In this document: piece after piece, positions 32,872-48,180 of the stretch | Position numbering within the stretch: the stretch's first letter is position 1 | Layout of the letters: every line of letters starts with the position of its first letter | Source of the DNA: a virus | Strand: one strand, 5' to 3' | DNA length: 64,000 nucleotides | Virus record (IMG/VR): IMGVR_UViG_3300023548_000002 | Span: 9,460-73,459 of that record | Made by a program: the position numbers and the translations under genes | Notes under the pieces: generated by a model | The model's database searches: none | Told to the model about the DNA's origin: nothing | Seen by the model: only the letters and a program-made list of their open reading frames with translations

Positions 32872-33156
32872 TTACCATTGGTTTAGTGGACACTTGTTGG
32901 CTTTCTTAAATGATTTTATCTTTAGCTCTAATAAACATCCACAGCCACATACTTTCTCTCCATTAACTTCCTTACACTTTTTTGGAGAACAAATGCCATT
33001 TACATTAAAATCACATCCTGAGCATTTCTCTATTCTCATAGATATTTCCTCCATCTCCTCGGGAGACAGTAAGTCCATACTATGTTTTAGCTGGTTCATT
33101 ACTGCCTCCATAAGAAGCGGAAAGGTCTGTATATATTTCTTAGCTTTCATTGGCAT
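32872..33156 (-). CDS. small Zn-binding protein
   Basis: CxxC..C..C..CGC..KCPxxxW. Confidence 0.6.
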   Translation of the reverse strand: MPMKAKKYIQTFPLLMEAVMNQLKHSMDLLSPEEMEEISMRIEKCSGCDFNVNGICSPKKCKEVNGEKVCGCGCLLELKIKSFKKANKCPLNQW

Positions 33157-34786: not shown

Positions 34787-35059
34787 TTAAGATTTTAAGT
34801 AAGCAATTACGTCGGTTTCTCGAAAGATTAAGTAAGGGTCGCCATTTACATAAATAGCAATAGGCATAGCATTTTCCATAATCAATACCTTATACCCCTC
34901 CCTAATCTCTGTTACATGATGTCCTGTTTTTAATACTTCCAAATAATTCACTTTCTTCTCTATTCCTACTAATTTGTCATCTTCCTGCTTTTCTTCTAAA
35001 CTTGGTTTGATGATAAAGTGATTCCGCATTGGAATCGGTAATTTCTCTGTTTTACTCAT
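34787..35059 (-). CDS. groES: co-chaperonin GroES-like
   Basis: 90 aa just upstream of groEL; PMRNHFIIKP..EVLKTG..YLIFRETDVIA. Confidence 0.75.
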   Translation of the reverse strand: MSKTEKLPIPMRNHFIIKPSLEEKQEDDKLVGIEKKVNYLEVLKTGHHVTEIREGYKVLIMENAMPIAIYVNGDPYLIFRETDVIAYLKS

Positions 35060-35333
35060 ATCCGTATTTTTCTTTTTGTTCTAAATATTCTAAATGCTCT
35101 AAGAGCACTTTCTGTACATCCCGATAACCCCCCTTTACATAAAAATTTCCTTGGGGAAGGATAATGATACAATAATCATCTCCACCTTCCTCCAAGGAAA
35201 AGTCATGAGTGAATGGTAATGTTACTTTGTAAGGTGTAGAGTATTTATCACTGGGATGCCCAGAATAAACAGTCATCTCTACTGTGTAATCACTTAGAAA
35301 TTTCATCTCTCTGTTTTTTAAGCTGTCTCTCAC
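35052..35333 (-). CDS. hypothetical protein
   Basis: ORF overlapping neighbours in the operon. Confidence 0.5.
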   Translation of the reverse strand: MRDSLKNREMKFLSDYTVEMTVYSGHPSDKYSTPYKVTLPFTHDFSLEEGGDDYCIIILPQGNFYVKGGYRDVQKVLLEHLEYLEQKEKYGYE

Positions 35334-35532
35334 AAAGATAGTGATTTACTTTTATACTACCAAAATATTTTAATCTTAAATTCCCTGCATCTTCGTGAGA
35401 TTCTACGTTAAACTCTTCCATAATTCGTTTTAATAACTTCCACTGAGACAGATACACCTTCTGTGCTTCCTGCTCTGTAATATTGTATTCTTCCGCTATT
35501 TTCCTTAGTATTTTCTTTACTATAATATTCAT
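35290..35532 (-). CDS. HU/IHF-like DNA-binding protein
   Basis: ILRKIAEEYNITEQEAQKV..LRLKYFGSIKV pattern. Confidence 0.65.
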   Translation of the reverse strand: MNIIVKKILRKIAEEYNITEQEAQKVYLSQWKLLKRIMEEFNVESHEDAGNLRLKYFGSIKVNHYLCERQLKKQRDEISK

Positions 35533-35744
35533 TCTTCTCTACTTATTAAATACCGTAGTCTCCATTTTCCTTCTACTGTCTTCTTTATCTGGTAATCTAT
35601 CTGGTAATCCATCTCATACTCATTATTCATATCTATTACCTCTTGCTCTACCTTCTCTAATACTCTCTCAGCTTCTTCTTTTGTCTTAAACTCTTTCTGT
35701 GAACTAAATAAATTCATATATTGTTTCTTATGTTTATATACCAC
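35529..35744 (-). CDS. hypothetical protein
   Basis: coupled ORF. Confidence 0.5.
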   Translation of the reverse strand: MVYKHKKQYMNLFSSQKEFKTKEEAERVLEKVEQEVIDMNNEYEMDYQIDYQIKKTVEGKWRLRYLISREE

Positions 35745-36013
35745 TCGTATTTTACAGGATTAAGTGATTCCGCCTGTATCTTATTTATCACCCCCTCTGA
35801 TGACTTCGCTCTAAATAATACGTCCTCTCTGTGCATATTTGTATCTAATACATAATCATTTGCTTCCTTTGTAATAGGATACAATATCATACTCTCATTA
35901 TCCTCCATTAACCCCCCATATACATACACATCCCCTACTACATAACTCCTAATGGTCGGAGTGAATATAATTATATCCCCCTTAATTAAATTCTCTGGTA
36001 AACTACAAGCCAT
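35714..36013 (-). CDS. hypothetical protein
   Basis: coupled ORF. Confidence 0.5.
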   Translation of the reverse strand: MACSLPENLIKGDIIIFTPTIRSYVVGDVYVYGGLMEDNESMILYPITKEANDYVLDTNMHREDVLFRAKSSEGVINKIQAESLNPVKYEWYINIRNNI

Positions 36014-36368
36014 TTCTCTTTATGTTAAATTGTAAAACTATTTCATCTGTATGAGGACATCGTATCTTTGGATTTAACCTGTCATTCTTTAATATCCCCC
36101 TACTCCTTAACTTACTTAATACATTATTTACAGTATTATAACTCGTCCCCAATCTATTAGCTATCTCATACCTATTCTCCTTGGTAAATATCAATAAACT
36201 TCTCCTATCCTCCTCAATAGCTCTATACTTATCATCATAATACATTATCTCCGCTAATACTTCTAATTCACGTGCACTCAACCCTAAATACCCATTTAAT
36301 ACTCTTAGGTACTGCTTGTAAAACTCTCTCCCCGTAGGTGCTACTGTCTCTTTACGTAATATCTTCAT
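36003..36368 (-). CDS. winged HTH DNA-binding protein
   Basis: LSARELEVL..EIANRLGTSYNTVNNVLSKLRSRGIL. Confidence 0.75.
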   Translation of the reverse strand: MKILRKETVAPTGREFYKQYLRVLNGYLGLSARELEVLAEIMYYDDKYRAIEEDRRSLLIFTKENRYEIANRLGTSYNTVNNVLSKLRSRGILKNDRLNPKIRCPHTDEIVLQFNIKRNGL

Positions 36369-36384
36369 ATTTAGTTATTTATGT

Positions 36385-36810
36385 TACTACCCATTTGGGT
36401 ATATTTTACCCCTAAGGTGGTAGCTCCCGCTATCACATAAGAATAAAAACCGTTCCGTTCTTATTCCCTCTTTCAAGTAGTTAGTCCTGACTTCGCTGGT
36501 GATGTCCACAGTTTCTTATGTTCCCTGCGTCACGACCCTCACGGGAGGCTTTCCCATGCCATGTAAAACCCGCCCGAAGCGTCCCAACTACTCTTATATC
36601 CCTATCGGAGAAAACTCCACCGCTATGTTCCTCTATTATTTCAAGAGCGCAGCTTACAATCCGACTTCTGGAGGGCTACCGCACCTTTTAGGCTCCTCAC
36701 CCCCGTACTTTGGTATAAAGAATAGTCCACCTTAGTAACCTTATAGCTACTAAGTAAATTCTTTATCATTATGTATCTGAACTATTCCCTTGGAAAACCA
36801 AAGGGGATGA
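36385..36810 (-). ncRNA. candidate structured RNA leader (or folded origin)
   Basis: GC-richer ORF-poor stretch with nested inverted repeats downstream of a consensus promoter. Confidence 0.35.
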
Positions 36811-36811
36811 G

Positions 36812-36842
36812 CAAATATACTAAATAATATTTATTATTCCAA
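36812..36842 (-). promoter_or_regulatory. Bacteroidota sigma-A type promoter (TTG-N20-TATATTTG)
   Basis: minus strand TTG at 36842-36840 and TATATTTG at 36819-36812. Confidence 0.7.
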
Positions 36843-37070
36843 GAAAAAATTAAATTATTTTTTAAAAATGTGCTTATAAGTAGGACAACTTGCTGTAAAT
36901 GAGTAAGATAGATTGTTGAAAAAAAAATTTATTTTTTTTTTTGAAAGGCATTCTGAAAATTTTTTGTGCACCCCGACGAGAGGGGACTACCCCCCAAGAC
37001 CACCCCAGGGTCGCATGCGCAGGGGAATATACCCCACATCCAACCTCGTAACCCATTAAATCTATATATT

Positions 37071-37277
37071 ATGAAAAAGTTCAAGTTAAAATTAGTCGAG
37101 GTTACGCAAAAAGAAGAGGTGGTAGTCGCCAAGTTCGTAATGTCTAACGACCTTGGTCGATGCTTCGTCTGGGGATTTTATGTGCCAGGTGCTACGCCGC
37201 CTGAACAGCTCACAGTCTCCGCTGACGCTATCATCGTCAACAACGGCTTCCGCCATCTCGACCCGACTAAGGCATGA
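37071..37277 (+). CDS. small early protein (68 aa)
   Basis: ATG at 37071 after an AT-rich leader; followed by a terminator. Confidence 0.65.
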   Translation: MKKFKLKLVEVTQKEEVVVAKFVMSNDLGRCFVWGFYVPGATPPEQLTVSADAIIVNNGFRHLDPTKA

Positions 37278-37281
37278 CGCC

Positions 37282-37303
37282 AGCCCCCTTCGGGGGCTTT
37301 TTT
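37282..37303 (+). terminator. intrinsic terminator
   Basis: agccccc-ttcg-gggggct stem with UUCG loop plus T tract. Confidence 0.85.
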
Positions 37304-37375
37304 CTCTTGTCAATTCCTGAATAAGTTCGATTTTTTATATATCTATCTTTTCTAACTTATTAATAAATTAATAAG

Positions 37376-37438
37376 GGATTACGCTTGGTAACTCATGGAT
37401 AAGTTAAAAAGGATTACGCACGGTAACGCATGGATAAG
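37376..37438. repeat. imperfect 28-bp tandem direct repeat
   Basis: ggattacgcttggtaactcatggataag / ggattacgcacggtaacgcatggataag, 35-bp period. Confidence 0.8.
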
Positions 37439-37655
37439 GGAAGAATGGTCGCTAAGCCCCTCCGCCCCTGAATACTCCGTCTCAGTCCTAACGAATAAGC
37501 CATTTCATACTTATTCATAGACCTTTTCTCTGCTCTATTTCCTTCCAAGAGAGCAAGAACTACTTGATATTAAGAATATTTCAACTATTTTCGCTAATAG
37601 TAAGGAAATAAAAACTTGTAAAAAATTAATTAATCACCAAAAAAACCTTAAAGCT

Positions 37656-38276
37656 ATGGGAACAACAGACTTAACAGCACTCGAAAAATTCATTGAAAAG
37701 TATTCTGATAAAGTTAATTGGAGTGAAATTTCAGAACATAAAAAACTATCGGAAGAGTTCATTGAGAAATATTCTGATAAAGTTAATTGGTATTGGATTT
37801 CACTCTATCAAAAATTATCAGAAGAATTTATTGATAAACATTCTGATAAAGTTGATTGGTATTGGATTTCAAAATATCAAGAATTATCAGAAGAATTTAT
37901 TGAAAATTACTCTAATAAAATTAATTGGAAACAGATTTCAAAATATCAAAAATTATCTGAAAAATTTATCGAGAAACATTCTGACAAAATTGATTGGAGA
38001 CAAATTTCAGAATATCAAAAATTGTCTGAAAATTTTATTGAAAAGTATAAAGACAAAATTGATTGGGAACATATTTCAGCTTACCAAAAATTATCTGAAG
38101 AATTTATTGAAAAACATTCAGATAAGGTTGATTGGTATTATATTTCAATGCACCAAGAATTATCTGAAAAATTCATTGAGAATCATTCTGATAAAGTTAA
38201 TTGGAAATGGATTTCAGCTTGCCAGAAATTATCAGAAGAATTCATTGAAAAGCATTCTGATAAATTAACTAAATAA
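37656..38276 (+). CDS. Trp-repeat protein 1 (8 x 23 aa)
   Basis: unit LSEEFIEKxSDKVDWxxISxxQK. Confidence 0.85.
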   Translation: MGTTDLTALEKFIEKYSDKVNWSEISEHKKLSEEFIEKYSDKVNWYWISLYQKLSEEFIDKHSDKVDWYWISKYQELSEEFIENYSNKINWKQISKYQKLSEKFIEKHSDKIDWRQISEYQKLSENFIEKYKDKIDWEHISAYQKLSEEFIEKHSDKVDWYYISMHQELSEKFIENHSDKVNWKWISACQKLSEEFIEKHSDKLTK

Positions 38277-38287
38277 AAATAAAAGCT

Positions 38288-38836
38288 ATGAAAACAACAG
38301 AATTAAAAAATCTCGAAGAATTTATTGAGAAACACCCCAATATAGTTAATTGGAGTGAAATTTCAAAATATCAAAAATTATCTGAAAAAATTATTGAAAA
38401 ACATTCTGATAAAGTTGATTGGTTTTGGATTTCGATTAAGCAAAAATTATCGGAGGAATTTATTGAAAAGTATTCTGATAAAGTTAATTGGTATTATATT
38501 TCAATTCACCAAGATTTATCTGAAAATTTCATTGAAAAGTATTCAAATAAAGTTGATTGGAGTGAAATTTCAGCTTACCAGAAACTATCGGAGGAATTTA
38601 TTGAAAAGTATTCAGATAAAGTTGATTGGTATTGGATTTCAGCTTACCAGAAATTATCGGAGGAATTCATTGAGAAGCATTCTGATAAAGTTGATTGGAA
38701 ATGGATTTCAGCTTGCCAGAAATTATCGGAGGAATTTATTGAGAATCATTCTGATAAGGTTGATTGGTATTGGATTTCAGCTTACCAGAAATTATCAGAG
38801 GAATTTATCGAAAAACATTCTGATAAACTCGGTTAA
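38288..38836 (+). CDS. Trp-repeat protein 2 (7 x 23 aa)
   Basis: same repeat unit. Confidence 0.85.
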   Translation: MKTTELKNLEEFIEKHPNIVNWSEISKYQKLSEKIIEKHSDKVDWFWISIKQKLSEEFIEKYSDKVNWYYISIHQDLSENFIEKYSNKVDWSEISAYQKLSEEFIEKYSDKVDWYWISAYQKLSEEFIEKHSDKVDWKWISACQKLSEEFIENHSDKVDWYWISAYQKLSEEFIEKHSDKLG

Positions 38837-38992
38837 ATATATAAAGGAGATTATTATCTCTGGTGGCAGCAGATAATTTCATTATCTGCCTTCAACAGTT
38901 AAAAGCTGTTGTCGTAACATAGTATTATTACTATGTATTGTGCGACTCTTCCTAACTTGGAAGAGTGATATATTAACCCAAAAATCATATAT

Positions 38993-39146
38993 TATGGCAC
39001 GCATTTTATTCATCGACCCTCGTACAGGGTTATTAACTTCATTCAATCCACGTAAAAAAGGGGATGAATGGGCAAAGAACCCAGACAAAGTTAAAGAAGA
39101 ATCTTTCAAAGCTCTGAAAGACCTCAAAAAGAAAAAAAGATATTAA
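38993..39146 (+). CDS. small basic hypothetical protein
   Basis: MARILFIDP.. after an A-rich leader; start approximate. Confidence 0.45.
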
Positions 39147-39162
39147 TTTAAATCTCAGAGCT

Positions 39163-39378
39163 ATGAAAAAAGTAAGAAACTTCAAAAACAAAAAGGGGTT
39201 CTTTCGTGTAAACCCCAGAAACGATTTACAAATGGTAAAAGAGGGATTACGTCCCCCTCGATTAACCCTTGACAGGACAATATTCAGAAAGACAGATGCC
39301 GAGCGGTATCTATTGAAACAATTAAAGAAAAATTGCCAAGGCATGATTGGTAGAACTATCAAATATCGTGCAATTTAA
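39163..39378 (+). CDS. small basic hypothetical protein
   Basis: 71-aa ORF. Confidence 0.5.
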   Translation: MKKVRNFKNKKGFFRVNPRNDLQMVKEGLRPPRLTLDRTIFRKTDAERYLLKQLKKNCQGMIGRTIKYRAI

Positions 39379-39658
39379 CTATGTTATTAACAGGGGAAAA
39401 GCACTGATACCCAAAATAAGTCCTAAGTGCATAGGCAGTATTAATATGATAGGTGTATTAGGAATAATAGGAATTATTGCTTTAGCAGTATTACGAGCTA
39501 CAGCACATCAATAGACTGAAAGCTCTCTGAAAGGACGCAGATGTGGAAAAACAGAATCCAATCTCACTGAGTAAGAGAGCAGTAGGGGAGAAGAGAGAGA
39601 ACTCGTTAAAACTCACAAATAAACTCTAATTAAAAACCAAACAAAAATCATTAAAACT

Positions 39659-40117
39659 ATGGGAAAATTAATCATGAAAGCCCATCCTGAAACAGGAGTA
39701 TTGGGCACTGAAGCAACTTTAAGCAATGGTAACAAAGGAGCATGGGTTCGAGTTGAGCAATCCACTGTTCAAATAAATAACGGCTTTATTGAAGAGCGAA
39801 AACGAGTAGCATTTGCTTTCGTTCCCGATGCCCTTAAAGCTCAAATATTGGACGGTAAGAAAGATGGTGATGAATTTCCTTTGGAAGGAAAAATTGTCAT
39901 CAAAGAAGCGTTACAACCTTTCTACGAAGGACAAGAACCCAAACGTGCAGGAGAAGATGGAGGTATCTGCGTAAAAAATGGTCGTCCTATCTACCGTCAA
40001 ATAGTATTTACCTCAAACATGGCGGAAGAAGATGAATTAATTCCCCACGATGCTATTGTGGAGAGTTTAGCATCTTTAGAAGCTACACAAGATACCAATT
40101 CTGCTGAAGAGCTGTAA
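39659..40117 (+). CDS. conserved Bacteroidota-phage protein, possibly SSB-like
   Basis: VRVEQ..PKRAGEDGGIC..GRPIYR motif, beta-rich, acidic tail. Confidence 0.5.
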   Translation: MGKLIMKAHPETGVLGTEATLSNGNKGAWVRVEQSTVQINNGFIEERKRVAFAFVPDALKAQILDGKKDGDEFPLEGKIVIKEALQPFYEGQEPKRAGEDGGICVKNGRPIYRQIVFTSNMAEEDELIPHDAIVESLASLEATQDTNSAEEL

Positions 40118-40123
40118 TTGGTC

Positions 40124-40167
40124 AGGGATTATGGTAATAAAGGGAGGTTCGATTCCTCCCAATCCCT
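40124..40167 (+). ncRNA. tRNA-like minihelix (acceptor stem plus T arm)
   Basis: agggatt/aatccct 7-bp stem and ggagg-ttcgatt-cctcc T arm; no D or anticodon arm. Confidence 0.55.
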
Positions 40168-40269
40168 CTAAATCCAAAAGTAACCCCATATAATGTATAG
40201 TGTTGTATTTCCAGAAAATTACCACAGAGTAGATGGGGTGAAATTGGATTTATACAGGTTTAATGGGTG

Positions 40270-40308
40270 AACCCATTAGCATCCAACGGATGTTAATGGG
40301 TTTTTTTT
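40270..40308 (+). terminator. intrinsic terminator
   Basis: aacccattagcatcc-aac-ggatgttaatgggtt plus T run. Confidence 0.85.
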
Positions 40309-40456
40309 GTTTTAAATTAAAATAAGATACATTCTACCCAACAATCTTTCACCATCCACCCAACACTCTATGAATTCCCCAACCTCTTTTCAGCAATAAC
40401 CCATTTTACACACATTTACAAAATTTATTTATTTAATATACTAAAAGCAATATACA

Positions 40457-40723
40457 ATGGAGAAACTGCACACACAACCAAAAGTAATAGCCTTTTCTTC
40501 CTCAATAGATGAAGAAAAACAATTCCTTTACACCAACTTTGAATTTATTGGAGAACCAGAAAATGGAGATGTCTTTGTAACAGAAAACCAGATAGAATTA
40601 TTAGAAGAATGGTTACAACAAGTAAGAGAAGAAGATAATAAAGTTATCGAAGAACTATTAACCACACTCATACACCATATAAAGAAAGAGAACTACAATC
40701 TTATTATTATTTATACATTTTAA
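40457..40723 (+). CDS. hypothetical protein
   Basis: 88-aa ORF. Confidence 0.55.
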   Translation: MEKLHTQPKVIAFSSSIDEEKQFLYTNFEFIGEPENGDVFVTENQIELLEEWLQQVREEDNKVIEELLTTLIHHIKKENYNLIIIYTF

Positions 40724-40728
40724 CAAGA

Positions 40729-40950
40729 ATGCTTATGGATATAAAAAGAGCAATAGAAATTCTCAAACAGTATAATAAATGGAGAACTGATAAAGAAATA
40801 CCATCAGTAAAAAAGATGCCACGTCCTTGTGAGATTACAGAAGCTATAAATACAGTCGTTGGAACATATACCCTCTTTGAATTCATGCGAGATAAAAATG
40901 GGGTAGCATTAACATTTGATGAACTTGGGGAAATATTGGGGAATAAATAG
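40729..40950 (+). CDS. hypothetical protein
   Basis: 73-aa ORF. Confidence 0.55.
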   Translation: MLMDIKRAIEILKQYNKWRTDKEIPSVKKMPRPCEITEAINTVVGTYTLFEFMRDKNGVALTFDELGEILGNK

Positions 40951-40958
40951 TATATTTG
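40951..40958 (+). promoter_or_regulatory. Bacteroidota-type -7 promoter element heading the small-ORF array
   Basis: TATATTTG in intergenic position. Confidence 0.55.
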
Positions 40959-41028
40959 CATTATAAGGGTTATGGTCATTATAGTGAATAGCGTAATTAT
41001 GTATTTAATAACTTAAAATTTAAATAAA

Positions 41029-41310
41029 ATGACAGAAGACGCAAAAAAAGTATGGAAAATAATGGAAGAAGATTTTGGCTGGAGTAATAAACCTAAGGAT
41101 TTTCATTTAGAATATTTTGAAGATATTATAAAAGCTACCAAGAAAGCATTAACTTTAAACGTAGTTAGCCGAAGTTTACTAAGTGAATATGATATAGGTA
41201 TAATTAGCGACTATGGTGTAGGGAATGTAGAATGGTGGCAAAATTATGTAAGAGAAGAAGTAGCGAGATGTAATGATTACTGGGTATCGCAATTACAAGA
41301 CGGGGATTAA
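41029..41310 (+). CDS. hypothetical cassette-like protein
   Basis: 93 aa; internal ALTLNVVSRS encodes a GTTA site. Confidence 0.6.
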   Translation: MTEDAKKVWKIMEEDFGWSNKPKDFHLEYFEDIIKATKKALTLNVVSRSLLSEYDIGIISDYGVGNVEWWQNYVREEVARCNDYWVSQLQDGD

Positions 41311-41396
41311 CTTAATGGCAAAGGCACGCTAACAAATTTGTATAAGCGTAATTGTGTATTTAATAACTTAAAATAATAACACAAAAATTTAGAATT

Positions 41397-41585
41397 ATGG
41401 GACAAATAATTTATCAAACAATTTACACCTGCGATTTATGCGGAAAAACTCCTGAAGATGGTGAGAAATTATGGCACATGGGAAATGAAGTATGGTGTGA
41501 AGAATGTTGTAATAAATCTTATTATGAAGACGATGAAGACGATGAAGATGACAATTGTGATGCAACCGAAAGTGATATTTATTAA
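41397..41585 (+). CDS. small Zn-finger protein with acidic tail
   Basis: CDLC..CEEC; DEDDEDD. Confidence 0.6.
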   Translation: MGQIIYQTIYTCDLCGKTPEDGEKLWHMGNEVWCEECCNKSYYEDDEDDEDDNCDATESDIY

Positions 41586-41648
41586 TTACGCATAACGAAT
41601 TTGTATAAGCGTAATTGTGTATTTAATAACTTAAAATAAAAAAAGATT

Positions 41649-41858
41649 ATGGCTGGAATTAATTACATAAACGAACAACAAGAAGGTGTAAGAGATTTGA
41701 AATTTAACCCAAATGCTGATATTCCAACAAAACTTGGGTATAGTTATTATCAATCGGATACAAATAATATTTGGTTTGTAAAAAGAACAAAAGACCAAAA
41801 AATTATAGCCTCATTTGTGGAAAAGAAACACTTAATTCTTTTCTTAAATGCACTATAA
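41649..41858 (+). CDS. hypothetical cassette-like protein
   Basis: stop codon is the TAA of a TAAC box. Confidence 0.6.
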   Translation: MAGINYINEQQEGVRDLKFNPNADIPTKLGYSYYQSDTNNIWFVKRTKDQKIIASFVEKKHLILFLNAL

Positions 41859-41991
41859 CGGATCGCGGCTATACTTAGTGCGTAATTTTAACATTAAATA
41901 TTAATTTAAAAACATAAATAAAAATGGGTGAAAATAAATTTTTAAACGAAAATGGTAGAGCATTAAGTATAGCCGATGTTATGAGCAGTGC
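41855..41991. mobile_element. attC-like recombination hairpin
   Basis: left arm ataac(gg)atc(gc)ggctatacttagtgc pairs with right arm gcattaagtatagccgatgttat, leaving extrahelical bases. Confidence 0.55.
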
Positions 41992-42226
41992 TTTAACCGA
42001 AAACGAAATTAAAATAGCACAAATTCAATCTGCCATAAAGAAACTTGGATATCAATGGCAAGAACATCAATTTAATGATGGATTTGATGAAGTCTTTATT
42101 GAAATAGCAAAAGATAAAGACCCTTCCGCAATTGATAGACACAAGGAAGATGCTGGATGGGGTAGGTTTGGCAGATTGACAGCTTGGACAATGGCTTTAG
42201 AGTGGGCGATTCAGCATTGCTCATAA
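41924..42226 (+). CDS. hypothetical cassette-like protein
   Basis: starts inside the hairpin loop, reads through GTTA, stops in TAAC. Confidence 0.6.
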   Translation: MGENKFLNENGRALSIADVMSSALTENEIKIAQIQSAIKKLGYQWQEHQFNDGFDEVFIEIAKDKDPSAIDRHKEDAGWGRFGRLTAWTMALEWAIQHCS

Positions 42227-42259
42227 CTCAGAATATCCGCAATAAAAAAATTTAATATT

Positions 42260-42496
42260 ATGAAAATAAAAGCAACAGTAGTAGAAATACTACAAGACAA
42301 CTATCAAGGTGGTTCTGGACTACCAATAAAAAGGGATATTATGGTTAATATACCAGACGATACAATAGCCATAAATATACTTGACGCAACTTATGTTAAT
42401 GTCAGGGAAAAAAGATTGAATAAAATGTGGGGAGATGGTTTAAAAAATACACCATACCTGTCAATAATTTCAGTTGAGATACTTCCCACCGCTTAA
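42260..42496 (+). CDS. hypothetical cassette-like protein
   Basis: flanked by tatccgcaat / attgcgcataac. Confidence 0.6.
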   Translation: MKIKATVVEILQDNYQGGSGLPIKRDIMVNIPDDTIAINILDATYVNVREKRLNKMWGDGLKNTPYLSIISVEILPTA

Positions 42497-42551
42497 TTGC
42501 GCATAACTATTTATATAAAAGTAATTTATTAACCAATAAATATAAAAAATT

Positions 42552-42809
42552 ATGGAGAGTAAATTAAGAAGATTAATAATGCTGTATGGAGCAGCCACAA
42601 TGATTAGCGATTTTGGTTATGAAACCACCTCTGAATATAAAGAATTGACTGACGAACAAAAAGCAGAAATAAAAGCCATTGCGGAACAAAAGAAATTAGA
42701 ACGCCTTAAAAAACAAGGTGTAAAAGAATATTTCTACGGAGATAAAGTTATTTATGCCTGTAATAAGAAAAATGCAGATAGAAAATCACGAAAGAAAGGT
42801 TACTTATAG
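42552..42809 (+). CDS. hypothetical protein
   Basis: 85 aa; IYACNKKNADRK motif. Confidence 0.6.
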   Translation: MESKLRRLIMLYGAATMISDFGYETTSEYKELTDEQKAEIKAIAEQKKLERLKKQGVKEYFYGDKVIYACNKKNADRKSRKKGYL

Positions 42810-42903
42810 CCCTTGTTATATTGCATTTTAATTCAACATAATTGTGCAGTGGGTTTTTATTTTTAATTATCCAAATTAGCTTTTTAATAAAAAATAAATT
42901 ATT

Positions 42904-43116
42904 ATGAAAAAAAAAATAGTAATTTTATTAGCAATACCTTTCCTAATTCTTTCCTGTAAGACAAAAGGAATTTTTAGAGAAATAGATACTGAATACAGTG
43001 GAAACACTTATGTAGTAGTTATTGATAGCTGTGAGTATTTATATATAGAAATGCACAATGTAAGATTATTTTCACATAAGGGGAACTGCAGATTTTGTAA
43101 AATACGAAATAATTGA
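42904..43116 (+). CDS. putative lipoprotein
   Basis: MKKK + hydrophobic + ILSC lipobox; IDSCEY..HKGNC. Confidence 0.65.
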   Translation: MKKKIVILLAIPFLILSCKTKGIFREIDTEYSGNTYVVVIDSCEYLYIEMHNVRLFSHKGNCRFCKIRNN

Positions 43117-43244
43117 TTAATTATAACAGGAATAAATATAATCTACAGAACTCAGAAATAATATTTATAGTTAAAGAAATAATTAGAAGAAAACGAAAAA
43201 CCAATAATGTGTTGTAGGGTTTACATTTAATGCAGAAGTAAAGC

Positions 43245-43460
43245 ATGGAACCATTTAAAGAATTTAACGACAATGATGTCTGCCCTATTTGTGGAGCAAG
43301 TGAAAATAAAGATATTGTTCTAATACAAATAGCAGGAACACAAAAAGCTAATATATCACAAGCTAAACAAGTGCATTTAGAGTGCTTAGTAAATACTGTG
43401 ATATATTATCCAAAAGAAAGAGTAATAGGTGCATATGCGCCATATAAAAAAGGAAAATAA
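43245..43460 (+). CDS. small Zn-binding protein
   Basis: CPIC..HLEC. Confidence 0.55.
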   Translation: MEPFKEFNDNDVCPICGASENKDIVLIQIAGTQKANISQAKQVHLECLVNTVIYYPKERVIGAYAPYKKGK

Positions 43461-43481
43461 CCACTTAAATTAATTAAAACT

Positions 43482-43883
43482 ATGAAAAAGTTATTAGTAT
43501 TAGCAGTAATAAGCTTATTTATTACAAGCACAGTAAAAAGTCAAGTAAAAACTTATACATTAAGTGATGTAACTGTAATTTTTACAGATTCATTAACCTC
43601 ACTGAAATCACTCAAATTTTATCCGAATCCAGTTACAGTAAAGATTGACGAAAAAGAAACTCTTGCGGTAGTAGATATAGAAAAAGCATTTTTAGCTATT
43701 TATCGCATTATAAATATTTATACATTTGAAGATAACTACGGACGTCCTTACACTGTATATCTAATGATAGATGTGGTGAATAAGAGTTCAGCGGCAGTAA
43801 AAGTTATTGATTCTTCTTATGTTATCTATACTATTGAGGATGTTATAATATCAGGACCTGTAAAAGAGTATTCAGTAAACTAA
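43482..43883 (+). CDS. secreted/periplasmic protein
   Basis: signal peptide ending VKS-Q (Bacteroidota N-terminal Gln rule). Confidence 0.6.
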   Translation: MKKLLVLAVISLFITSTVKSQVKTYTLSDVTVIFTDSLTSLKSLKFYPNPVTVKIDEKETLAVVDIEKAFLAIYRIINIYTFEDNYGRPYTVYLMIDVVNKSSAAVKVIDSSYVIYTIEDVIISGPVKEYSVN

Positions 43884-43912
43884 CTCTTTTTATCTGATAA
43901 ACTATAAGACAT

Positions 43913-43948
43913 ACTACATTCTGATTATGTAATCAGAATGTAGTTTTT
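43913..43948 (+). terminator. 15-bp perfect inverted repeat, probable terminator
   Basis: actacattctgatta-tg-taatcagaatgtagt followed by tttt. Confidence 0.7.
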
Positions 43949-43998
43949 ATAGAGTTTTATATTTTGTAAATAATTAATCAATTACTTAAAAGTTTAAA

Positions 43999-44484
43999 AT
44001 GATGGCAACCACAGAATTAAAAAAGCTCGAAGAATTAATTGAGCAAGACCCAAATAAAGTTGATTGGGAATGGATTTCAAAATATCAAGAACTATCCGAA
44101 GAATTTATTGAAAAATATTCCAATAAAATTTATTGGAGGGAAATTTCAAAGTATCAAAAATTATCAGAAGAATTTATTGAAAAACATTCTGACAAAGTTG
44201 ATTGGTATTGGATTTCAATGCACCAAAAATTATCTGAAAAGTTTATTGAAAAGCATAAAGATAAAGTTGATTGGAAACGTATATCAATGAAACAAGAACT
44301 ATCAGAAGAATTTATCGAAAAATATTCTGACAAAGTTGATTGGTATTGGATTTCAATAGTACAGAAATTATCCGAGGAATTTATTGAAAGGCATTCTAAT
44401 AAAGTTAATTGGGAATGGTTTGTAAAACTTCAAAAATTATCTGAAGAATTCATTGAGAAACATTCTGATAAATTAACTAAATAA
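43999..44484 (+). CDS. Trp-repeat protein 3 (6 x 23 aa)
   Basis: same repeat unit. Confidence 0.85.
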   Translation: MMATTELKKLEELIEQDPNKVDWEWISKYQELSEEFIEKYSNKIYWREISKYQKLSEEFIEKHSDKVDWYWISMHQKLSEKFIEKHKDKVDWKRISMKQELSEEFIEKYSDKVDWYWISIVQKLSEEFIERHSNKVNWEWFVKLQKLSEEFIEKHSDKLTK

Positions 44485-44495
44485 AAATAAAAGTT

Positions 44496-45323
44496 ATGAA
44501 AAAAGAAGAATTAACAAAGCTCGAAGAATTAATTGAGAAAGACCCCAATAAAGTTAATTGGTATTGGATTTCAATTCACCAAGAATTATCCGAAGAGTTT
44601 ATTGAAAAATACTCTGATAAAGTTGATTGGGAACGGATTTCAAAATATCAAAAATTATCTGAAAAATTTATTGAAAAGTATTCAGATAAAATTGATTGGT
44701 TTCTGATTTCAAAATACCAAAAATTATCTGAAAAATTTATTGAAAAGTATTCAGATAAAGTTGATTGGGAATGGATTTCAAAATATCAAAAATTATCGGA
44801 AGAATTTATTGAAAAGTATTCAGATAAAGTTGATTGGGAATGGATTTCAAAATATCAAAAATTATCTGAAGAATTTATTGAAAAGCATAAAGATAAAGTT
44901 AGTTGGTATTATATTTCAATTCACCAAAAATTATCGGAAGAATTTATTGAAAAACATAAAGATAGGGTTGATTGGTATTGGATTTCAGTTGAACAAAAAT
45001 TATCCGAAAAATTCATTGAGAAACATTCTGATAAAGTTGATTGGCATTGGATTTCAATATCCCAAGAATTATCTGAAAAATTTATTGAAAAGTATAAAGA
45101 TAAAGTTGATTGGGAGCAGATTTCAATACACCAAAAATTATCTGAAAAATTCATTGAAAAATACTCTGATAAAGTTGATTGGGAATGGATTTCAAAATAT
45201 CAAAAATTATCGGAAGAATTTATTGAAAAGCATAAAGATAAAGTTAATTGGTACTGGATTTCAATTTGGCAAGAACTTTCTGAAGAATTTATTGAAAAGC
45301 ATTCTGATAAATTAACTAAATAA
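44496..45323 (+). CDS. Trp-repeat protein 4 (11 x 23 aa)
   Basis: same repeat unit. Confidence 0.85.
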   Translation: MKKEELTKLEELIEKDPNKVNWYWISIHQELSEEFIEKYSDKVDWERISKYQKLSEKFIEKYSDKIDWFLISKYQKLSEKFIEKYSDKVDWEWISKYQKLSEEFIEKYSDKVDWEWISKYQKLSEEFIEKHKDKVSWYYISIHQKLSEEFIEKHKDRVDWYWISVEQKLSEKFIEKHSDKVDWHWISISQELSEKFIEKYKDKVDWEQISIHQKLSEKFIEKYSDKVDWEWISKYQKLSEEFIEKHKDKVNWYWISIWQELSEEFIEKHSDKLTK

Positions 45324-45334
45324 AAATAAAAGCT

Positions 45335-45820
45335 ATGAAAACAACAGAATTAACAAAGCTCGAAGAATTTATTGAGAAATACCCCAATATAGTTAATTGG
45401 AGTGAAATTTCAAAATACCAAGAATTATCTGAAAAATTCATTGAAAAGTATTCTGATAAAGTTGATTGGAAATGGATTTCAAAATACCAAGACTTATCTG
45501 AAAAATTTATTGAGAAACATTCTGATAAAGTCGATTGGAAACAGATTTCAATCTACCAAGAATTATCTGAAGAATTCATTGAAAAACATTCTGATAAACT
45601 TGATTGGGGACAGATTTCAGTCTACCAGAAATTATCTGAAAAATTCATTGAAAAGTATTCCGATAAAGTTGATTGGATTTGGATTTCAATTTACCAGAAA
45701 CTATCTGAAAAATTCATTGAAAAGTATTCCGATAAAGTTAATTGGATTTGGATTTCAATTTACCAGAAACTATCTGAAAAATTCATTGAGAAACATTCTG
45801 ATAAATTAACTAAATTTTAA
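45335..45820 (+). CDS. Trp-repeat protein 5 (6 x 23 aa)
   Basis: same repeat unit. Confidence 0.85.
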   Translation: MKTTELTKLEEFIEKYPNIVNWSEISKYQELSEKFIEKYSDKVDWKWISKYQDLSEKFIEKHSDKVDWKQISIYQELSEEFIEKHSDKLDWGQISVYQKLSEKFIEKYSDKVDWIWISIYQKLSEKFIEKYSDKVNWIWISIYQKLSEKFIEKHSDKLTKF

Positions 45821-45834
45821 TAAAAATAAAAGCT

Positions 45835-46455
45835 ATGAAAAAAGAAGAATTAACAAAGCTCGAAGAATTAATTGAGAAAGACCCCAATATAGTTGATTGG
45901 AGTGAAATTTCAAAATACCAAAAATTATCTGAAGAATTTATTGAAAAGCATTCTGATAAAGTTGATTGGGAATGGATTTCAAAATTCCAAGAATTATCTG
46001 AAGAGTTCATTGAAAAGCATTCTGATAAAGTTGATTGGAGTAAAATTTCTGAATACCAAAAATTATCTGAAGAATTTATTGAAAAACATAAAGATAGGGT
46101 TGATTGGTATTGGATTTCAGTTGAACAAAAATTATCCGAAAAATTCATTGAGAAACATTCTGATAAAGTTGATTGGCATTGGATTTCAGTTGAACAAAAA
46201 TTATCCGAAAAATTCATTGAGAAACATTCTGATAAAGTTGATTGGCATTGGATTTCAATATCCCAAGAATTATCTGAAAAATTTATTGAAAAGTATTCAG
46301 ATAAAGTTGATTGGGAGCAGATTTCAAAATATCAAAAATTATCGGAAGAATTTATTGAAAAGCATAAAGATAAAGTTAATTGGTACTGGATTTCAATTTG
46401 GCAAGAACTTTCTGAAGAATTTATTGAAAAGCATTCCGATAAATTAACTAAATAA
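45835..46455 (+). CDS. Trp-repeat protein 6 (8 x 23 aa)
   Basis: same repeat unit. Confidence 0.85.
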   Translation: MKKEELTKLEELIEKDPNIVDWSEISKYQKLSEEFIEKHSDKVDWEWISKFQELSEEFIEKHSDKVDWSKISEYQKLSEEFIEKHKDRVDWYWISVEQKLSEKFIEKHSDKVDWHWISVEQKLSEKFIEKHSDKVDWHWISISQELSEKFIEKYSDKVDWEQISKYQKLSEEFIEKHKDKVNWYWISIWQELSEEFIEKHSDKLTK

Positions 46456-46466
46456 AAATAAAAGCT

Positions 46467-46775
46467 ATGAAAAAAATTAAAGTTGACCCTGACAAAGTTA
46501 TTAAAATCGAGCCAAGAATGATTAAAGAGAATTTCGCCAATACAAAAAAAGCTATGAAAACAATTAAATTAAAAACTGAAAAAGATGTTAAGAAATTCCT
46601 AAACTCAAACGAGTTAGGATTTAACAAGAATAACGTAATTATAAATGGAATTAAACCCATTCTTGGATTTAATGTATCGAATAAGCACATAACATATTAT
46701 AGTTCCGAAAAGCAAGCAACACAAGTATTAACTTCCCGTAATGGGTATTTTATTTTAGAGAATTATGAAATTTGA
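46467..46775 (+). CDS. hypothetical protein
   Basis: uses the same aaataaaagctATG leader as the repeat genes. Confidence 0.5.
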   Translation: MKKIKVDPDKVIKIEPRMIKENFANTKKAMKTIKLKTEKDVKKFLNSNELGFNKNNVIINGIKPILGFNVSNKHITYYSSEKQATQVLTSRNGYFILENYEI

Positions 46776-47121
46776 TGAAATAAGTTTTCCTTTGTATATT
46801 GATAAGAAGGAACCTGAAATTATACGAGACAGTAAACATAATATCTTCCTAAAACTACCAAGTAATTATGGAGACATTGCATTTGATATTATGTCTTTCT
46901 TTAATCTAAGAAAAGAGTGGATAGATGGTGAAAGAATTTCAATGATTGACTCCATAGATAAAGAACAAGTATTAAGAGACGAATATAAATATCATTTACT
47001 TGGATACAAATCTTATAATGACTTTAAATTAAAAGAAGGGAAAGATTTAGTTCCTTGTAAAAGCTGTGGAGTATATTATTGGAAAGACTGCCACCCTAAT
47101 TGTGATTGTGAATTAAGCTAA
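46765..47121 (+). CDS. hypothetical protein with C-terminal Cys cluster
   Basis: CKSC..CHPNCDC. Confidence 0.55.
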   Translation: MKFDEISFPLYIDKKEPEIIRDSKHNIFLKLPSNYGDIAFDIMSFFNLRKEWIDGERISMIDSIDKEQVLRDEYKYHLLGYKSYNDFKLKEGKDLVPCKSCGVYYWKDCHPNCDCELS

Positions 47122-47276
47122 AAATTTTAATTAAGACTTATAGAGAAAATAATAGGGAAAGAACAATATTCTTGGAGAAGAATGCAAAAATTATATGCTT
47201 ACTTGGAAATAATAACAAGGAACTTAGAATTCTCATAATATTTAACTTATTTTTAACTTATTAAAACTTACAAGTT

Positions 47277-47417
47277 ATGTTAAATAAAAGATTGTTAAAA
47301 CGGATAGAAGAAATATTTCAAGAAAAATTACAAGTTAAAACAGGTTGGGGAAGGAATGAAATATTAGAATTATACTACCAATCTGTAAATGAAGCTTTAA
47401 TGGAATTATTAGAATAA
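47277..47417 (+). CDS. small hypothetical protein (below ORF-track cutoff)
   Basis: MLNKRLLKRIEE..KTGWGRNE read manually. Confidence 0.45.
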   Translation: MLNKRLLKRIEEIFQEKLQVKTGWGRNEILELYYQSVNEALMELLE

Positions 47418-47433
47418 CTAAAACTAACTAATT

Positions 47434-47634
47434 ATGTTATCACAAGATTATACACTATGTACTGGATGTCCCTTAAAAGATAACTGTGAAAGATATGTAT
47501 CTTATGAACATTTATCTAAGCAAAAAGATATGATGTATATAGTCGTCTCTGTATTTATGGATATTCCTTACGATGAAAAAAGAGGAGAGTGTGAGTATTT
47601 AATTCCTATAAAAAATAAGAATAACACGTCTTAA
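47434..47634 (+). CDS. small Cys-rich protein
   Basis: CTGCPLKDNCERY..CEY. Confidence 0.6.
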   Translation: MLSQDYTLCTGCPLKDNCERYVSYEHLSKQKDMMYIVVSVFMDIPYDEKRGECEYLIPIKNKNNTS

Positions 47635-47677
47635 AATATAAAAAGCTAATAGTTATTAACAAATTAACCGAGTAATT

Positions 47678-47854
47678 ATGGACAGTAATACATTCAAAGA
47701 GCTTAATCCTATTGGAACAGAAGTAGCATATCACGGTAGAGATATTAAAATTATTTCTTACACTACTGACGGATATGCTATTATTTTGGATTATGCTACA
47801 GATGAAGAGAGAGTAATTTCTATTGAAGAATTAATAGAACAAAACTATGATTAA
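47678..47854 (+). CDS. small hypothetical protein (below ORF-track cutoff)
   Basis: MDSNTFKELNPIGTEV.. read manually. Confidence 0.45.
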   Translation: MDSNTFKELNPIGTEVAYHGRDIKIISYTTDGYAIILDYATDEERVISIEELIEQNYD

Positions 47855-47943
47855 TTTCTTTTCAATTATTTTTATTCCTACGGTAGTAATAACATTAATG
47901 CTGTTATTACTATGGGAATACATTAAATATAAATGGAATACAA

Positions 47944-48180
47944 ATGACGAAACCACACGTAACAAAAGAAGAACTTGAGCGTTTTGAGAAGTTAAAAAAG
48001 AAATATGACCTTCCTGTATTAAATCAATTAATAGATGATTATTTAGAAGGTAAAGATTATGGGAAGAATATCTTTATTATTCTTTATCAAGGAGTATCCT
48101 GGTATGATATAATGTCTATTTCTAAAGATTTCTCATATTGGTGGAGATTAAGTTATGATTTTGCAAAAGAAACATTATGA
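47944..48180 (+). CDS. hypothetical protein
   Basis: 78-aa ORF. Confidence 0.5.
   Translation: MTKPHVTKEELERFEKLKKKYDLPVLNQLIDDYLEGKDYGKNIFIILYQGVSWYDIMSISKDFSYWWRLSYDFAKETL

What the first reader, a model, noticed from the sequence alone, without database searches (positions are those of the whole stretch)
40951..43130. Integron-like cassette array in a phage: small ORFs bracketed by TAAC/GTTA inverted repeats
Seen: successive small unrelated ORFs end at or just before a TAAC box (41330, 41593, 41856, 42224, 42504, 43124). The bases before each TAAC are complementary to sequence at the start of the same unit. Pairs are gttatgagcagtgc (41978) with gcattgctcataac (42214), taagcgtaatt (41343) with aattacgcata (41584), tatccgcaat (42234) with attgcgcata (42496), gtgtatttaa (41617) with ttaaatgcac (41844), and gttata (42815) with tataac (43122). 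A full bulged hairpin lies at 41855-41982 and a TATATTTG promoter heads the array. Known: integron cassettes show this self-complementarity of R'' (..AAC) with their own R' (GTT..) and recombine as folded ssDNA with extrahelical bases. Inference: a phage-borne cassette-shuffling system with non-canonical attC-like sites. No integrase lies in this window, so it would act in trans. Some pairings are short and AT-rich.
Basis: partly seen in the sequence, partly recalled or inferred. Interest (0 to 1): 0.85.

Follow-up and report, generated by a model that had tools for sequence, protein, structure and literature searches.

The report
Gene-junction repeats and hairpin, crAss-like phage
A run of small unrelated genes in an environmental crAss-like phage is separated by repeated junction sequences and one conserved hairpin that travels with a mobile gene; it resembles an integron only in part.

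Summary
A TAAC or ATAAC box at gene ends is enriched in this array: ATAAC 6 of 10 genes against 3 of 69 elsewhere. The complementarity between unit start and unit end exceeds chance only for ORF5 (41924-42226). Only 1 of 9 junctions folds significantly, the hairpin at 41856-41981. Three TAAC boxes are simply part of a ~50-nt direct repeat found in successive intergenic regions. The 73-kb record is a crAss-like phage, 76% complete. It has no tyrosine or serine recombinase and no Y1 transposase.

ORF5 with its upstream hairpin behaves as a single-gene module. Relatives at 40-88% identity lie in 8 other metagenomic contigs that share no other gene with the window or with each other.

The hairpin belongs to an apparently undescribed family (no Rfam match). 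Its layout is TAAC, a 4-6 nt bulge, a 16-21 bp stem, a loop of 5-80 nt, the return stem, then GTTA. It pairs on one strand only (33 G.T against 2 A.C mismatches). I found it in three further phage contigs and nine Bacteroidota genome contigs.

Best reading: a hyperplastic early region built from single-gene modules joined by conserved junction elements, comparable to the PeSL cassettes of T4-type phages. An attC-like recombination role is not excluded but is less likely.

The parts
40269..40303 (+). Canonical intrinsic terminator (16-bp stem followed by a T run). It marks the upstream edge of the small-gene block.
40951..40958 (+). TATATTTG, a match to the Bacteroidota -7 box pattern TAnnTTTG (consensus recalled). 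It occurs at chance frequency and has no -33 TTG.
40975..41024 (+). Direct repeat D1, copy 1 (68% identical to copy 2). It lies upstream of ORF 41029-41310.
41330..41379 (+). Direct repeat D1, copy 2. It starts with the TAAC box at 41330 and lies upstream of ORF 41397-41585.
41593..41642 (+). Direct repeat D1, copy 3 (96% identical to copy 2). It starts with the TAAC box at 41593 and lies upstream of ORF 41649-41858. Short-read assemblies break at these copies.
41856..41981 (+). Junction hairpin A, 126 nt. Layout: TAAC, 6-nt bulge, 16-bp stem (41866-41881 with 41960-41975, one G.T), 78-nt loop holding an A-rich leader and the ATG at 41924, 2 nt, GTTA. It is the only member of the family in the 73-kb record.
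41924..42226 (+). ORF5 (100 aa), the mobile single-gene module. The conserved core starts at Met20 (ATG 41981, inside GTTATG). The first 19 residues vary among homologues. AlphaFold2 mean pLDDT is 81, with no significant PDB match.
41978..41992 (+). Left arm of the ORF5 start/end inverted repeat. It is also the 3' outer flank of hairpin A.
42213..42227 (+). Right arm of the same inverted repeat. It ends in the stop codon plus C (the TAAC box at 42224). It has the sequence of the 5' outer flank that precedes family hairpins elsewhere, for example in L006, where a hairpin follows directly.
42493..42551 (+). Degenerate copy of the junction repeat (15 nt at 42493-42507 match 41582-41596 with one change). 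It carries the TAAC box at 42504 and has no significant fold.
42552..42818 (+). ORF7 plus 9 nt. A ~93% relative in run X4 sits in another context. Its similarity to the window ends at 42818, the A of GTTA 42815-42818. This rests on a single contig.
43124..43127 (+). TAAC box after ORF 42904-43116. No fold and no partner above chance.
43913..43944 (+). Canonical intrinsic terminator (14-bp stem followed by a T run). It marks the downstream edge of the small-gene block.

Best explanation
Window 40.3-43.9 kb is a hyperplastic block of unrelated ORFan genes in an environmental crAss-like phage. Two ordinary terminators bound it, so it is probably one transcription unit.

The genes are joined by members of one family of conserved junction sequences. 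A junction consists of an ATAAC box at or just after the stop codon, a short spacer and a conserved left arm. In complete copies an A-rich leader and a right arm ending in GTTA follow.

In this phage three or four junctions are truncated, non-folding copies (the ~50-nt direct repeats). One junction is complete, hairpin A in front of ORF5.

Shown:
- ORF5 with its hairpin is a single-gene module found in many unrelated gene neighbourhoods.
- The hairpin is kept by compensatory changes and pairs on one strand only.

Inferred:
- Modules are exchanged between phages by recombination within the conserved junction sequences. This is how PeSL cassettes are thought to be shuffled in T4-type phages, and it needs no dedicated integrase.
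- In the phage the hairpin acts in the sense transcript. It would hold the leader and start codon of the downstream gene in a loop closed by a long stem, serving processing, stability or translation control.
For: Phage identity. The large terminase is 44-45% identical to IAS virus and cr85_1. Portal, capsid and GroEL genes are present.

Block boundaries. Terminators lie at 40269-40303 and 43913-43944.

Junction sequences. Direct repeats. ATAAC enrichment at gene ends.

ORF5 as a module. ORF5 has 28 homologues besides itself among 32 candidates. In the 8 metagenomic loci fetched for it, no neighbouring ORF matches the window genome or another locus at E<=1e-4.

Hairpin conservation. The TAAC-to-GTTA distance is 126, 127, 127, 126, 125 and 125 nt in six contexts. 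Stems differ by compensatory changes. Window against L010: 3 double changes, 1 change to G.T and 0 disruptions in 16 pairs. Window against L005: 4 double changes in 11 pairs.

One-strand pairing. In family stems, mismatches on the gene-sense strand of phage contigs are 33 G.T against 2 A.C. All 19 phage-contig hairpins point the same way as the genes.

Nucleotide-level constraint. The right arm overlaps coding sequence in different reading frames in different genes.

Discrete unit. In L006 the repeated unit starts at TAAC and ends at GTTA.

Precedent. PeSL cassettes are described in PMC2839356 (abstract and passages) and PMC4122927 (abstract).
Against: No promoter is shown. A sigma-70-type scan does not pick out the repeats and finds fewer sites than shuffles do (22 against 33). 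The Bacteroidota-type -7 box is at chance.

The direct repeats do not fold, so they are not promoter-plus-terminator composites like PeSLs.

There is no direct evidence of recombination. A ~99.7% identical strain in a second study has the same gene order, and contigs showed no joints. Contigs could not reveal a deletion between repeats longer than their word size.

In Bacteroidota genomes the same family lies with its folding strand antisense to the flanking genes: 8 of 8 short copies, and likewise the long copies. This speaks against a role tied to the mRNA of neighbouring genes. It fits a DNA-level or self-transcribed role better.

The near-identical core in different Bacteroidota classes, at only 1-3 copies per genome, looks like a mobile or recombination-associated site.
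Confidence: 0.5

Rival explanations
1. Integron-like system. The TAAC...GTTA hairpins are attC-like sites that fold as single-stranded DNA. A recombinase supplied in trans (by the host, or from the missing 24% of the phage) recombines them, excising and inserting single-gene cassettes.
For: - The layout parallels attC: AAC/GTT closing helix, unpaired spacer, long imperfect stem, loop of 5-80 nt, total length 54-134 nt.
- The unit is discrete, from TAAC to GTTA.
- Pairing is on one strand only.
- ORF5's start is complementary to its own end over 15 nt, as a cassette's R' is to its R''.
- ORF5 sits in 8 different contexts.
- In a Bacteroidaceae MAG, three copies within 5.3 kb bracket accessory genes, including an MNT-HepT toxin-antitoxin pair. 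There the folding strand is antisense to the ORFs, as in integrons.
- CALINs with working attC sites have been reported in virulent phages (PMC9892861, abstract and section 3.4).
Against: - No integrase, resolvase or Y1 transposase in the 73 kb.
- The nearest tyrosine recombinase to the Bacteroidaceae array is about 400 kb away.
- Only one folding site in the window.
- In phage contigs the folding strand is the sense strand.
- Hairpin A is inherited with the downstream gene, and its 3' arm is coding.
- Integrons are very rare in Bacteroidetes according to the IntegronFinder 2.0 preprint (passages).
- Polaribacter phage P12002L, which has reported attC sites, carries no member of this family.
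- The stems have no extrahelical bases of the attC kind; they have conserved G.T pairs instead.
Confidence: 0.15
2. Purely regulatory RNA elements, such as an RNase III-type processing site, an mRNA stabiliser or a translational operator. The mosaic distribution of ORF5 would then be ordinary phage mosaicism unrelated to the hairpin.
For: - G.U-compatible pairing on the sense strand in 19 of 19 phage hairpins.
- An invariant G.U in 10 of 10 short copies.
- Loops hold an A-rich leader followed by an ATG that opens the downstream ORF.
- The segment 41845-42235 folds with z=-5.7.
- Short bacterial copies are followed by T-rich runs.
Against: - Orientation is reversed relative to genes in bacterial genomes.
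- The sequence, not only the structure, is conserved across classes at 1-3 copies per genome, in accessory regions.
- Truncated, non-folding copies are kept at 96% identity in the window.
- No Rfam family matches.
Confidence: 0.2
3. A selfish miniature inverted-repeat element (MITE- or REP-like) that inserts between genes and has no function for the phage.
For: - Discrete ends.
- Four copies in the 3.7 kb of L006, three of them nearly identical.
- Scattered low-copy occurrence across Bacteroidota classes.
- The ends could be read as a duplicated TA target.
Against: - Strict orientation rules in both phages and bacteria.
- Only G.T mismatches, even in stems of quite different sequence.
- Constant placement between a stop and the next start.
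- No transposase nearby in the window record.
- No empty site was found for comparison.
Confidence: 0.1

Closest known systems
PeSL (promoter-early stem-loop) cassettes of T4-type phages (Arbiol et al. 2010, PMC2839356; Comeau et al. 2014, PMC4122927)
   Same: Conserved composite motifs lie between small ORFan genes in hyperplastic regions. ORFans are flanked by repeated junction motifs, as ORF 41397-41585 is between two 96% identical repeats. Single-gene modules differ between related phages.
   Different: No sigma-70-like promoter and no GC-rich terminator stem with a T run is found in the repeats. The one hairpin is a long-range stem enclosing the leader and start of the next gene. The family is also found in bacterial chromosomes. 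No mini-circles or indels were shown here.
Integron attC sites, and CALINs in phage genomes (Qi et al. 2023, PMC9892861)
   Same: An imperfect hairpin of 54-134 nt closed by an AAC/GTT helix. One-strand pairing. Placement right after an ORF. Arrays of small co-directional ORFs. A cassette found in many contexts.
   Different: No integrase. One site in the window. The sense strand folds in phage contigs. The hairpin is tied to the downstream gene. There are no extrahelical bases. The core sequence is conserved, whereas attC sites conserve little beyond the R boxes (recalled). The host phylum almost lacks integrons.
RNase III processing hairpins between the early genes of phage T7 (recalled, not checked in a paper here)
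   Same: Hairpins with an internal loop lie between cistrons of an early polycistronic unit. A double-stranded stem of about two helical turns.
   Different: The loop contains the next gene's start codon and the 3' arm is coding, so cleavage would cut the message. No RNase III gene in the record. The bacterial copies are in antisense orientation.
REP elements and Correia-type MITEs (recalled; REP survey PMC3733652 seen only in a search listing)
   Same: Short palindromic intergenic elements with conserved ends, sometimes transcribed and structured.
   Different: Low copy number, strict orientation, compensatory changes in the stems, and overlap with coding sequence.

Membership tests
Integron / CALIN | Integron integrase (tyrosine recombinase) next to the array | tested here: not met
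   PF00589 gives 0 matches at E<=1 in the 73,459-nt record, while the control genomes all match. The record is 76% complete, so the missing part is untested.
Integron / CALIN | A folding attC site after each cassette ORF (a CALIN needs at least 2; IntegronFinder 2.0 preprint) | tested here: not met
   1 of 9 junctions folds better than all 200 shuffles. There is 1 strong TAAC...GTTA hairpin in 73 kb and none on the other strand.
Integron / CALIN | R''/R' core sites RYYYAAC and GTTRRRY (GTTRRRY quoted in PMC9892861; RYYYAAC recalled) | tested here: inconclusive
   AAC and GTT are present and pair. In hairpin A the other positions (CTATAAC, GTTATGA) depart from the purine/pyrimidine pattern at 2 positions each (read).
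Integron / CALIN | The bottom strand (antisense to the cassette ORF) is the recombining, folding strand | tested here: not met
   In phage contigs the mismatches are 33 G.T against 2 A.C on the sense strand, and 19 of 19 hairpins are co-oriented with the genes. The feature is met in bacterial copies, 8 of 8.
Integron / CALIN | The attC belongs to the ORF upstream of it | tested here: not met
   Hairpin A occurs with ORF5 in 6 contexts whose upstream ORFs are unrelated. Its 3' arm lies in ORF5 codons.
Integron / CALIN | Detection by the attC covariance models of IntegronFinder or HattCI | not testable with these tools
   These models are not in Rfam. Rfam searches gave no match for the hairpin in the window or in the family hairpins of 9 bacterial loci.
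PeSL-type regulatory cassettes | A conserved composite motif repeated between ORFans of a hyperplastic region | tested here: met
   Three copies of a ~50-nt repeat plus one degenerate copy lie in successive intergenic regions. The ORFs are unrelated.
PeSL-type regulatory cassettes | A strong sigma-70-like promoter in the motif | tested here: not met
   The consensus scan lists no site in the repeats and finds 22 sites against 33 expected. The Bacteroidota -7 pattern is at chance. Promoter types of crAss-like phages could not be compared (see Tried and rejected).
PeSL-type regulatory cassettes | A stem-loop that terminates transcription | tested here: not met
   The repeats have no significant fold (z -0.4 and -0.7). 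Hairpin A lacks a T run, whereas the two true terminators of the region have one.
PeSL-type regulatory cassettes | Insertions and deletions between close relatives bounded by the motif; mini-circles | tested here: inconclusive
   The only near-identical strain (run X2) has the same order and no joints. Contigs cannot show a deletion between repeats longer than their words. Circles are not testable here.
Known RNA families (Rfam 15) | A match to a curated covariance model | tested here: not met
   No relevant match at E<=1 in window 35000-48000. None at E<=0.1 in 9 bacterial loci, apart from a group II intron elsewhere in L136.

The most novel reading that the evidence does not exclude
The TAACG...TGTTA hairpins are the recombination sites of an undescribed single-strand cassette-exchange system shared by Bacteroidota chromosomes and several kinds of their phages. 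It would be a functional analogue of attC without an integron integrase nearby. ORF5-type single genes, DNA methylases and toxin-antitoxin pairs would be its cassettes.
Probability: 0.12. Interest if true: 0.85.

Novelty: new variant of a known kind. Interest (0 to 1): 0.55.

Why it matters
How phages gain and lose the small ORFan genes that fill their variable regions is largely unknown outside T4-type phages. Here a conserved, strand-specific junction element marks the border of a gene that has moved between many unrelated phage backgrounds. Relatives of the element lie beside accessory genes in Bacteroidota chromosomes. If the element guides recombination, it would be a new route of gene flow in a dominant phage-host group. 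If it acts in RNA, it is a new cis-regulatory motif for a phylum whose translation and RNA processing signals are poorly known. Either possibility can be tested with the sequences identified here.

Tried and rejected
Relatives in IMG/VR. Single-protein scans with ORF5, ORF 39659-40117 and GroEL found none. Neither did the ORF5 alignment or the 22-nt repeat core.

Isolated phages. DNA of 38500-46000 matched only the tryptophan-repeat genes. tblastn with ORF5 and ORF7 found nothing.

Protein families. Pfam gave nothing for 10 small ORFs. PHROGs gave three weak unknown-function hits.

Kin search. The genome search 'relatives' is not available for a virus record.

IMG/VR pattern scan. 119 loci (1.0 Mb) came back. 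Most were chance matches; only L043, L052 and L066 hold family hairpins.

Genome pattern scan. 120 loci came back. Eleven had TAAC...GTTA hairpins. Two of these (L148, L192) are unrelated palindromes.

Polaribacter phage P12002L (reported attC sites) has only one weak, chance-level hit.

Reads. No joints were seen. RNA-library contigs cover 41937-42157, 42297-42554, 43000-43183, 39239-39398 and 39581-39901. Being contigs, they show neither strand nor ends, and they may be DNA carry-over. Parts without cover are not evidence.

ORF5 fold. No PDB match below E=0.39.

Rejected readings:
- Rho-independent terminator: no T run follows hairpin A.
- Invertible segment: spacers of 3-80 bp, and one-strand mismatches, do not fit.
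- N4-type hairpin promoter: that would need the template strand to fold.

Not seen. Supplements were closed. Supplementary file 1 and the logos of the phi14:2 preprint (10.1101/2020.03.07.982082) give the crAss-like middle promoter motif. So I could not test whether the direct repeat is that motif. The text says only that early transcripts lack a common motif and that middle promoters are tripartite and sigma-70-like.

Literature. Searches turned up no description of this hairpin family. That is no proof that none exists.
Full report
CONTEXT

The window is bases 9460-73459 of a 73,459-nt IMG/VR virus record judged 76% complete. Its large terminase is 44-45% identical to those of IAS virus and cr85_1. 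Crassvirales, Bacteroides and Flavobacterium phages dominate the hits. Portal, major head protein and a GroEL lie on the minus strand. DNA polymerase, helicases and primase lie on the plus strand. It is therefore an environmental crAss-like phage, presumably of a Bacteroidota host.

The finding lies in a block of 11 small, mutually unrelated plus-strand ORFs. Two canonical intrinsic terminators bound the block, at 40269-40303 and 43913-43944. Arrays of tryptophan-repeat paralogues flank it.

CHECK OF THE OBSERVATION

All six TAAC boxes are at the stated places. TAAC is frequent in this 32% G+C sequence, with 292 copies on the plus strand. A box close to the stop codon is nevertheless enriched in the array:
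- TAAC: 8 of 10 array genes against 17 of 69 other genes (p=0.001).
- ATAAC: 6 of 10 against 3 of 69 (p=5e-5) (the region was chosen post hoc).

Three of the six boxes have a plain explanation. The boxes at 41330 and 41593 are the first bases of a ~50-nt direct repeat (96% identical copies, plus a 68% copy at 40975). The box at 42504 sits in a degenerate fourth copy.

The claimed complementarity between the start and the end of each unit fails a control for all units but one. The ORF5 pair (41978-41992 with 42213-42227, 14 of 15) gives -27.3 kcal/mol, reached by 1 of 300 shuffles. The other eight units score like shuffles (0.28-0.59), and own-unit pairs are no better than cross-unit pairs (p=0.25).

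The hairpin at 41855-41982 is real. It has a 16-bp stem with a single G.T. Folding gives z=-4.15 for 41841-41990 and z=-5.7 for 41845-42235. Of nine junctions folded it is the only clearly structured one.

The TATATTTG 'promoter' matches a pattern that occurs at chance frequency and has no upstream TTG.

WHAT ORF5 AND ITS HAIRPIN ARE

ORF5 has 28 homologues in metagenome protein sets. Their conserved core begins at Met20, whose ATG (41981) sits in GTTATG. The first ~19 residues vary in sequence and length.

Eight metagenomic loci encode a relative at 40-88% identity. None of their other ORFs matches anything in the window genome, and none is shared between any two of the 12 loci compared. These contigs are short, 1.1-10.4 kb. 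ORF5 is therefore a single-gene module in unrelated neighbourhoods.

Downstream, similarity stops at the stop codon, which reads ...CATAAC in 6 of the 7 loci that show the 3' end. Upstream, six contexts carry a hairpin from a TAAC to the GTTA of GTTATG, with a nearly constant length of 125-127 nt. The stems differ in sequence but stay paired:
- Window against L010: three double changes, one change to G.T and no disruption in 16 pairs.
- Window against L005: four double changes in 11 pairs.

Hairpin similarity follows ORF5 similarity, and the 3' arm lies in ORF5 codons. The hairpin thus belongs to the downstream gene.

A FAMILY OF JUNCTION HAIRPINS

An unbiased inverted-repeat listing of the related loci showed the same layout at other gene junctions. 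The layout is TAAC, 4-6 unpaired nt, a 16-21 bp stem, a loop of 5-80 nt, the return stem, 1-3 nt, then GTTA. There are four copies in L006, two in L010 and one in L007. In L006 the repeated unit begins at TAAC and ends at GTTA.

Flanks beyond these boxes are also complementary. This explains the ORF5 start/end pair. Its left arm is the 3' flank of hairpin A. Its right arm is the 5' flank that precedes a further hairpin in L006, a hairpin that is missing in the window.

A pattern scan of IMG/VR returned 119 loci, mostly chance matches. Three of them hold family members:
- L043 has four, one in front of an N6/N4 DNA methylase.
- L052 has two, in a contig with Sf6-like small terminase, Terminase_3 and portal, so it is not crAss-like.
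- L066 has one, with ERF and HNH genes.

In stems of the family, mismatches on the gene-sense strand are 33 G.T against 2 A.C. All 19 phage-contig hairpins point the same way as the genes. The right arm overlaps coding sequence in different frames in different genes. The constraint is therefore on the nucleic acid, and on one strand.

The window's genome holds only one intact member. Its direct repeats share the ATAAC box, the spacer and the start of the left arm, and they do not fold.

THE FAMILY IN BACTERIA

A scan of species-representative genomes gave 120 loci. Nine contigs carry family hairpins, and all nine are Bacteroidota by their titles: Roseivirga, Maribacter, Aquimarina, Tenacibaculum, Bacteroidales, Bacteroidaceae, Sphingobacteriales and two unclassified.

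Five of these genomes hold 1-3 copies each. Short copies (54-64 nt) have a nearly invariant core, an invariant G.T pair in 10 of 10, and a three-base loop of the form G-N-A. Such loops are known to be unusually stable in DNA; this is recalled, not checked.

Flanking genes are unrelated accessory genes. In one Bacteroidaceae MAG, three copies within 5.3 kb bracket an MNT-HepT pair, a hydrolase and secreted proteins.

In bacteria the folding strand is antisense to the neighbouring genes in 8 of 8 short copies, and likewise in the long copies. This is the opposite of the phage rule. Rfam has no matching family.

INTERPRETATION

The integron reading fails several defining tests in the window:
- No integrase, resolvase or Y1 transposase. 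The 9.5 kb outside the window encode two giant proteins.
- Only one folding site.
- The sense strand folds.
- The hairpin is tied to the downstream gene.

Integrons are also very rare in Bacteroidetes. Phage-borne attC clusters are already in print (PMC9892861), but the Polaribacter phage studied there lacks this family.

There is a conserved, strand-specific junction element at the border of a gene that moves as a unit.

The closest described system is the PeSL cassette of T4-type phages, where conserved intergenic motifs serve as crossover points for ORFan exchange. Unlike PeSLs, these junctions show no sigma-70-type promoter and no terminator.

I therefore favour module exchange by recombination within the conserved junction sequences, with the hairpin acting in the sense transcript of the phage (confidence 0.5). 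The reversed orientation, the cross-class sequence identity and the accessory-gene neighbourhoods in bacteria keep a DNA-level, attC-like role open (0.15). A purely RNA role (0.2) and a selfish MITE-like element (0.1) are the other rivals.

LIMITS

- No direct evidence of recombination or of transcript ends was obtained.
- The only near-identical strain, from another study, has the same gene order.
- One contig of a third sample carries a ~93% relative of ORF7 whose similarity ends at the A of GTTA 42815-42818. This is a single observation.
- Only ORF5 was traced through other genomes.

Noticed in passing
window 37656-38836 and 43999-46775: Two arrays of tryptophan-repeat family paralogues (phrog_3532) flank the small-gene block. 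The genes are separated by near-identical 11-14 nt spacers and resemble genes of jumbo Bacillus and Listeria phages at the DNA level.
   Followed up: no
window 40118-40165: The intergenic sequence contains a tRNA T-arm-like stretch (GGTTCGATTCC within a 6-bp stem), although ARAGORN finds no tRNA in the window. It may be a tRNA 3'-half remnant.
   Followed up: no
window 33140-34783 (-): A full-length GroEL-type chaperonin gene lies in a crAss-like phage (phrog_5725, E=1.5e-117).
   Followed up: no
window 41924-42226: The AlphaFold2 model of ORF5 (pLDDT 81) has helix, strands, helix topology. Many of the weak PDB hits (E 0.4-2, TM about 0.35-0.46) are double-stranded-RNA-binding domains. None is significant.
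   Followed up: partly
window 42025-42035 / 42169-42179; L009 7654-7664 / 7802-7812: A perfect 11-nt inverted repeat lies inside the ORF5 coding region and is also present in the L009 homologue. It forms a third nested stem in the predicted fold of 41845-42235.
   Followed up: no
L196 1019-2565 (Bacteroidaceae MAG): An MNT (nucleotidyltransferase) and HepT toxin-antitoxin pair is bracketed by two family hairpins. An IS256-family transposase fragment lies nearby.
   Followed up: partly
L136 7108-7301 (-): A group II intron (RF02001, E=1.2e-14) lies about 3 kb from a family hairpin in a Bacteroidales MAG.
   Followed up: no
L012 2-9496 (record bases outside the window): Two giant minus-strand ORFs (at least 1375 aa and 1787 aa) lie here, with 768-, 1050- and 1382-aa ORFs at the window start. 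They are probably the virion RNA polymerase and tail-associated giant proteins typical of crAss-like phages. They were not annotated here.
   Followed up: no
window 41520-41552: A GATGAAGAC-type acidic repeat in ORF 41397-41585 attracts unrelated contigs from runs X2 and X4, which produces false depth there.
   Followed up: no
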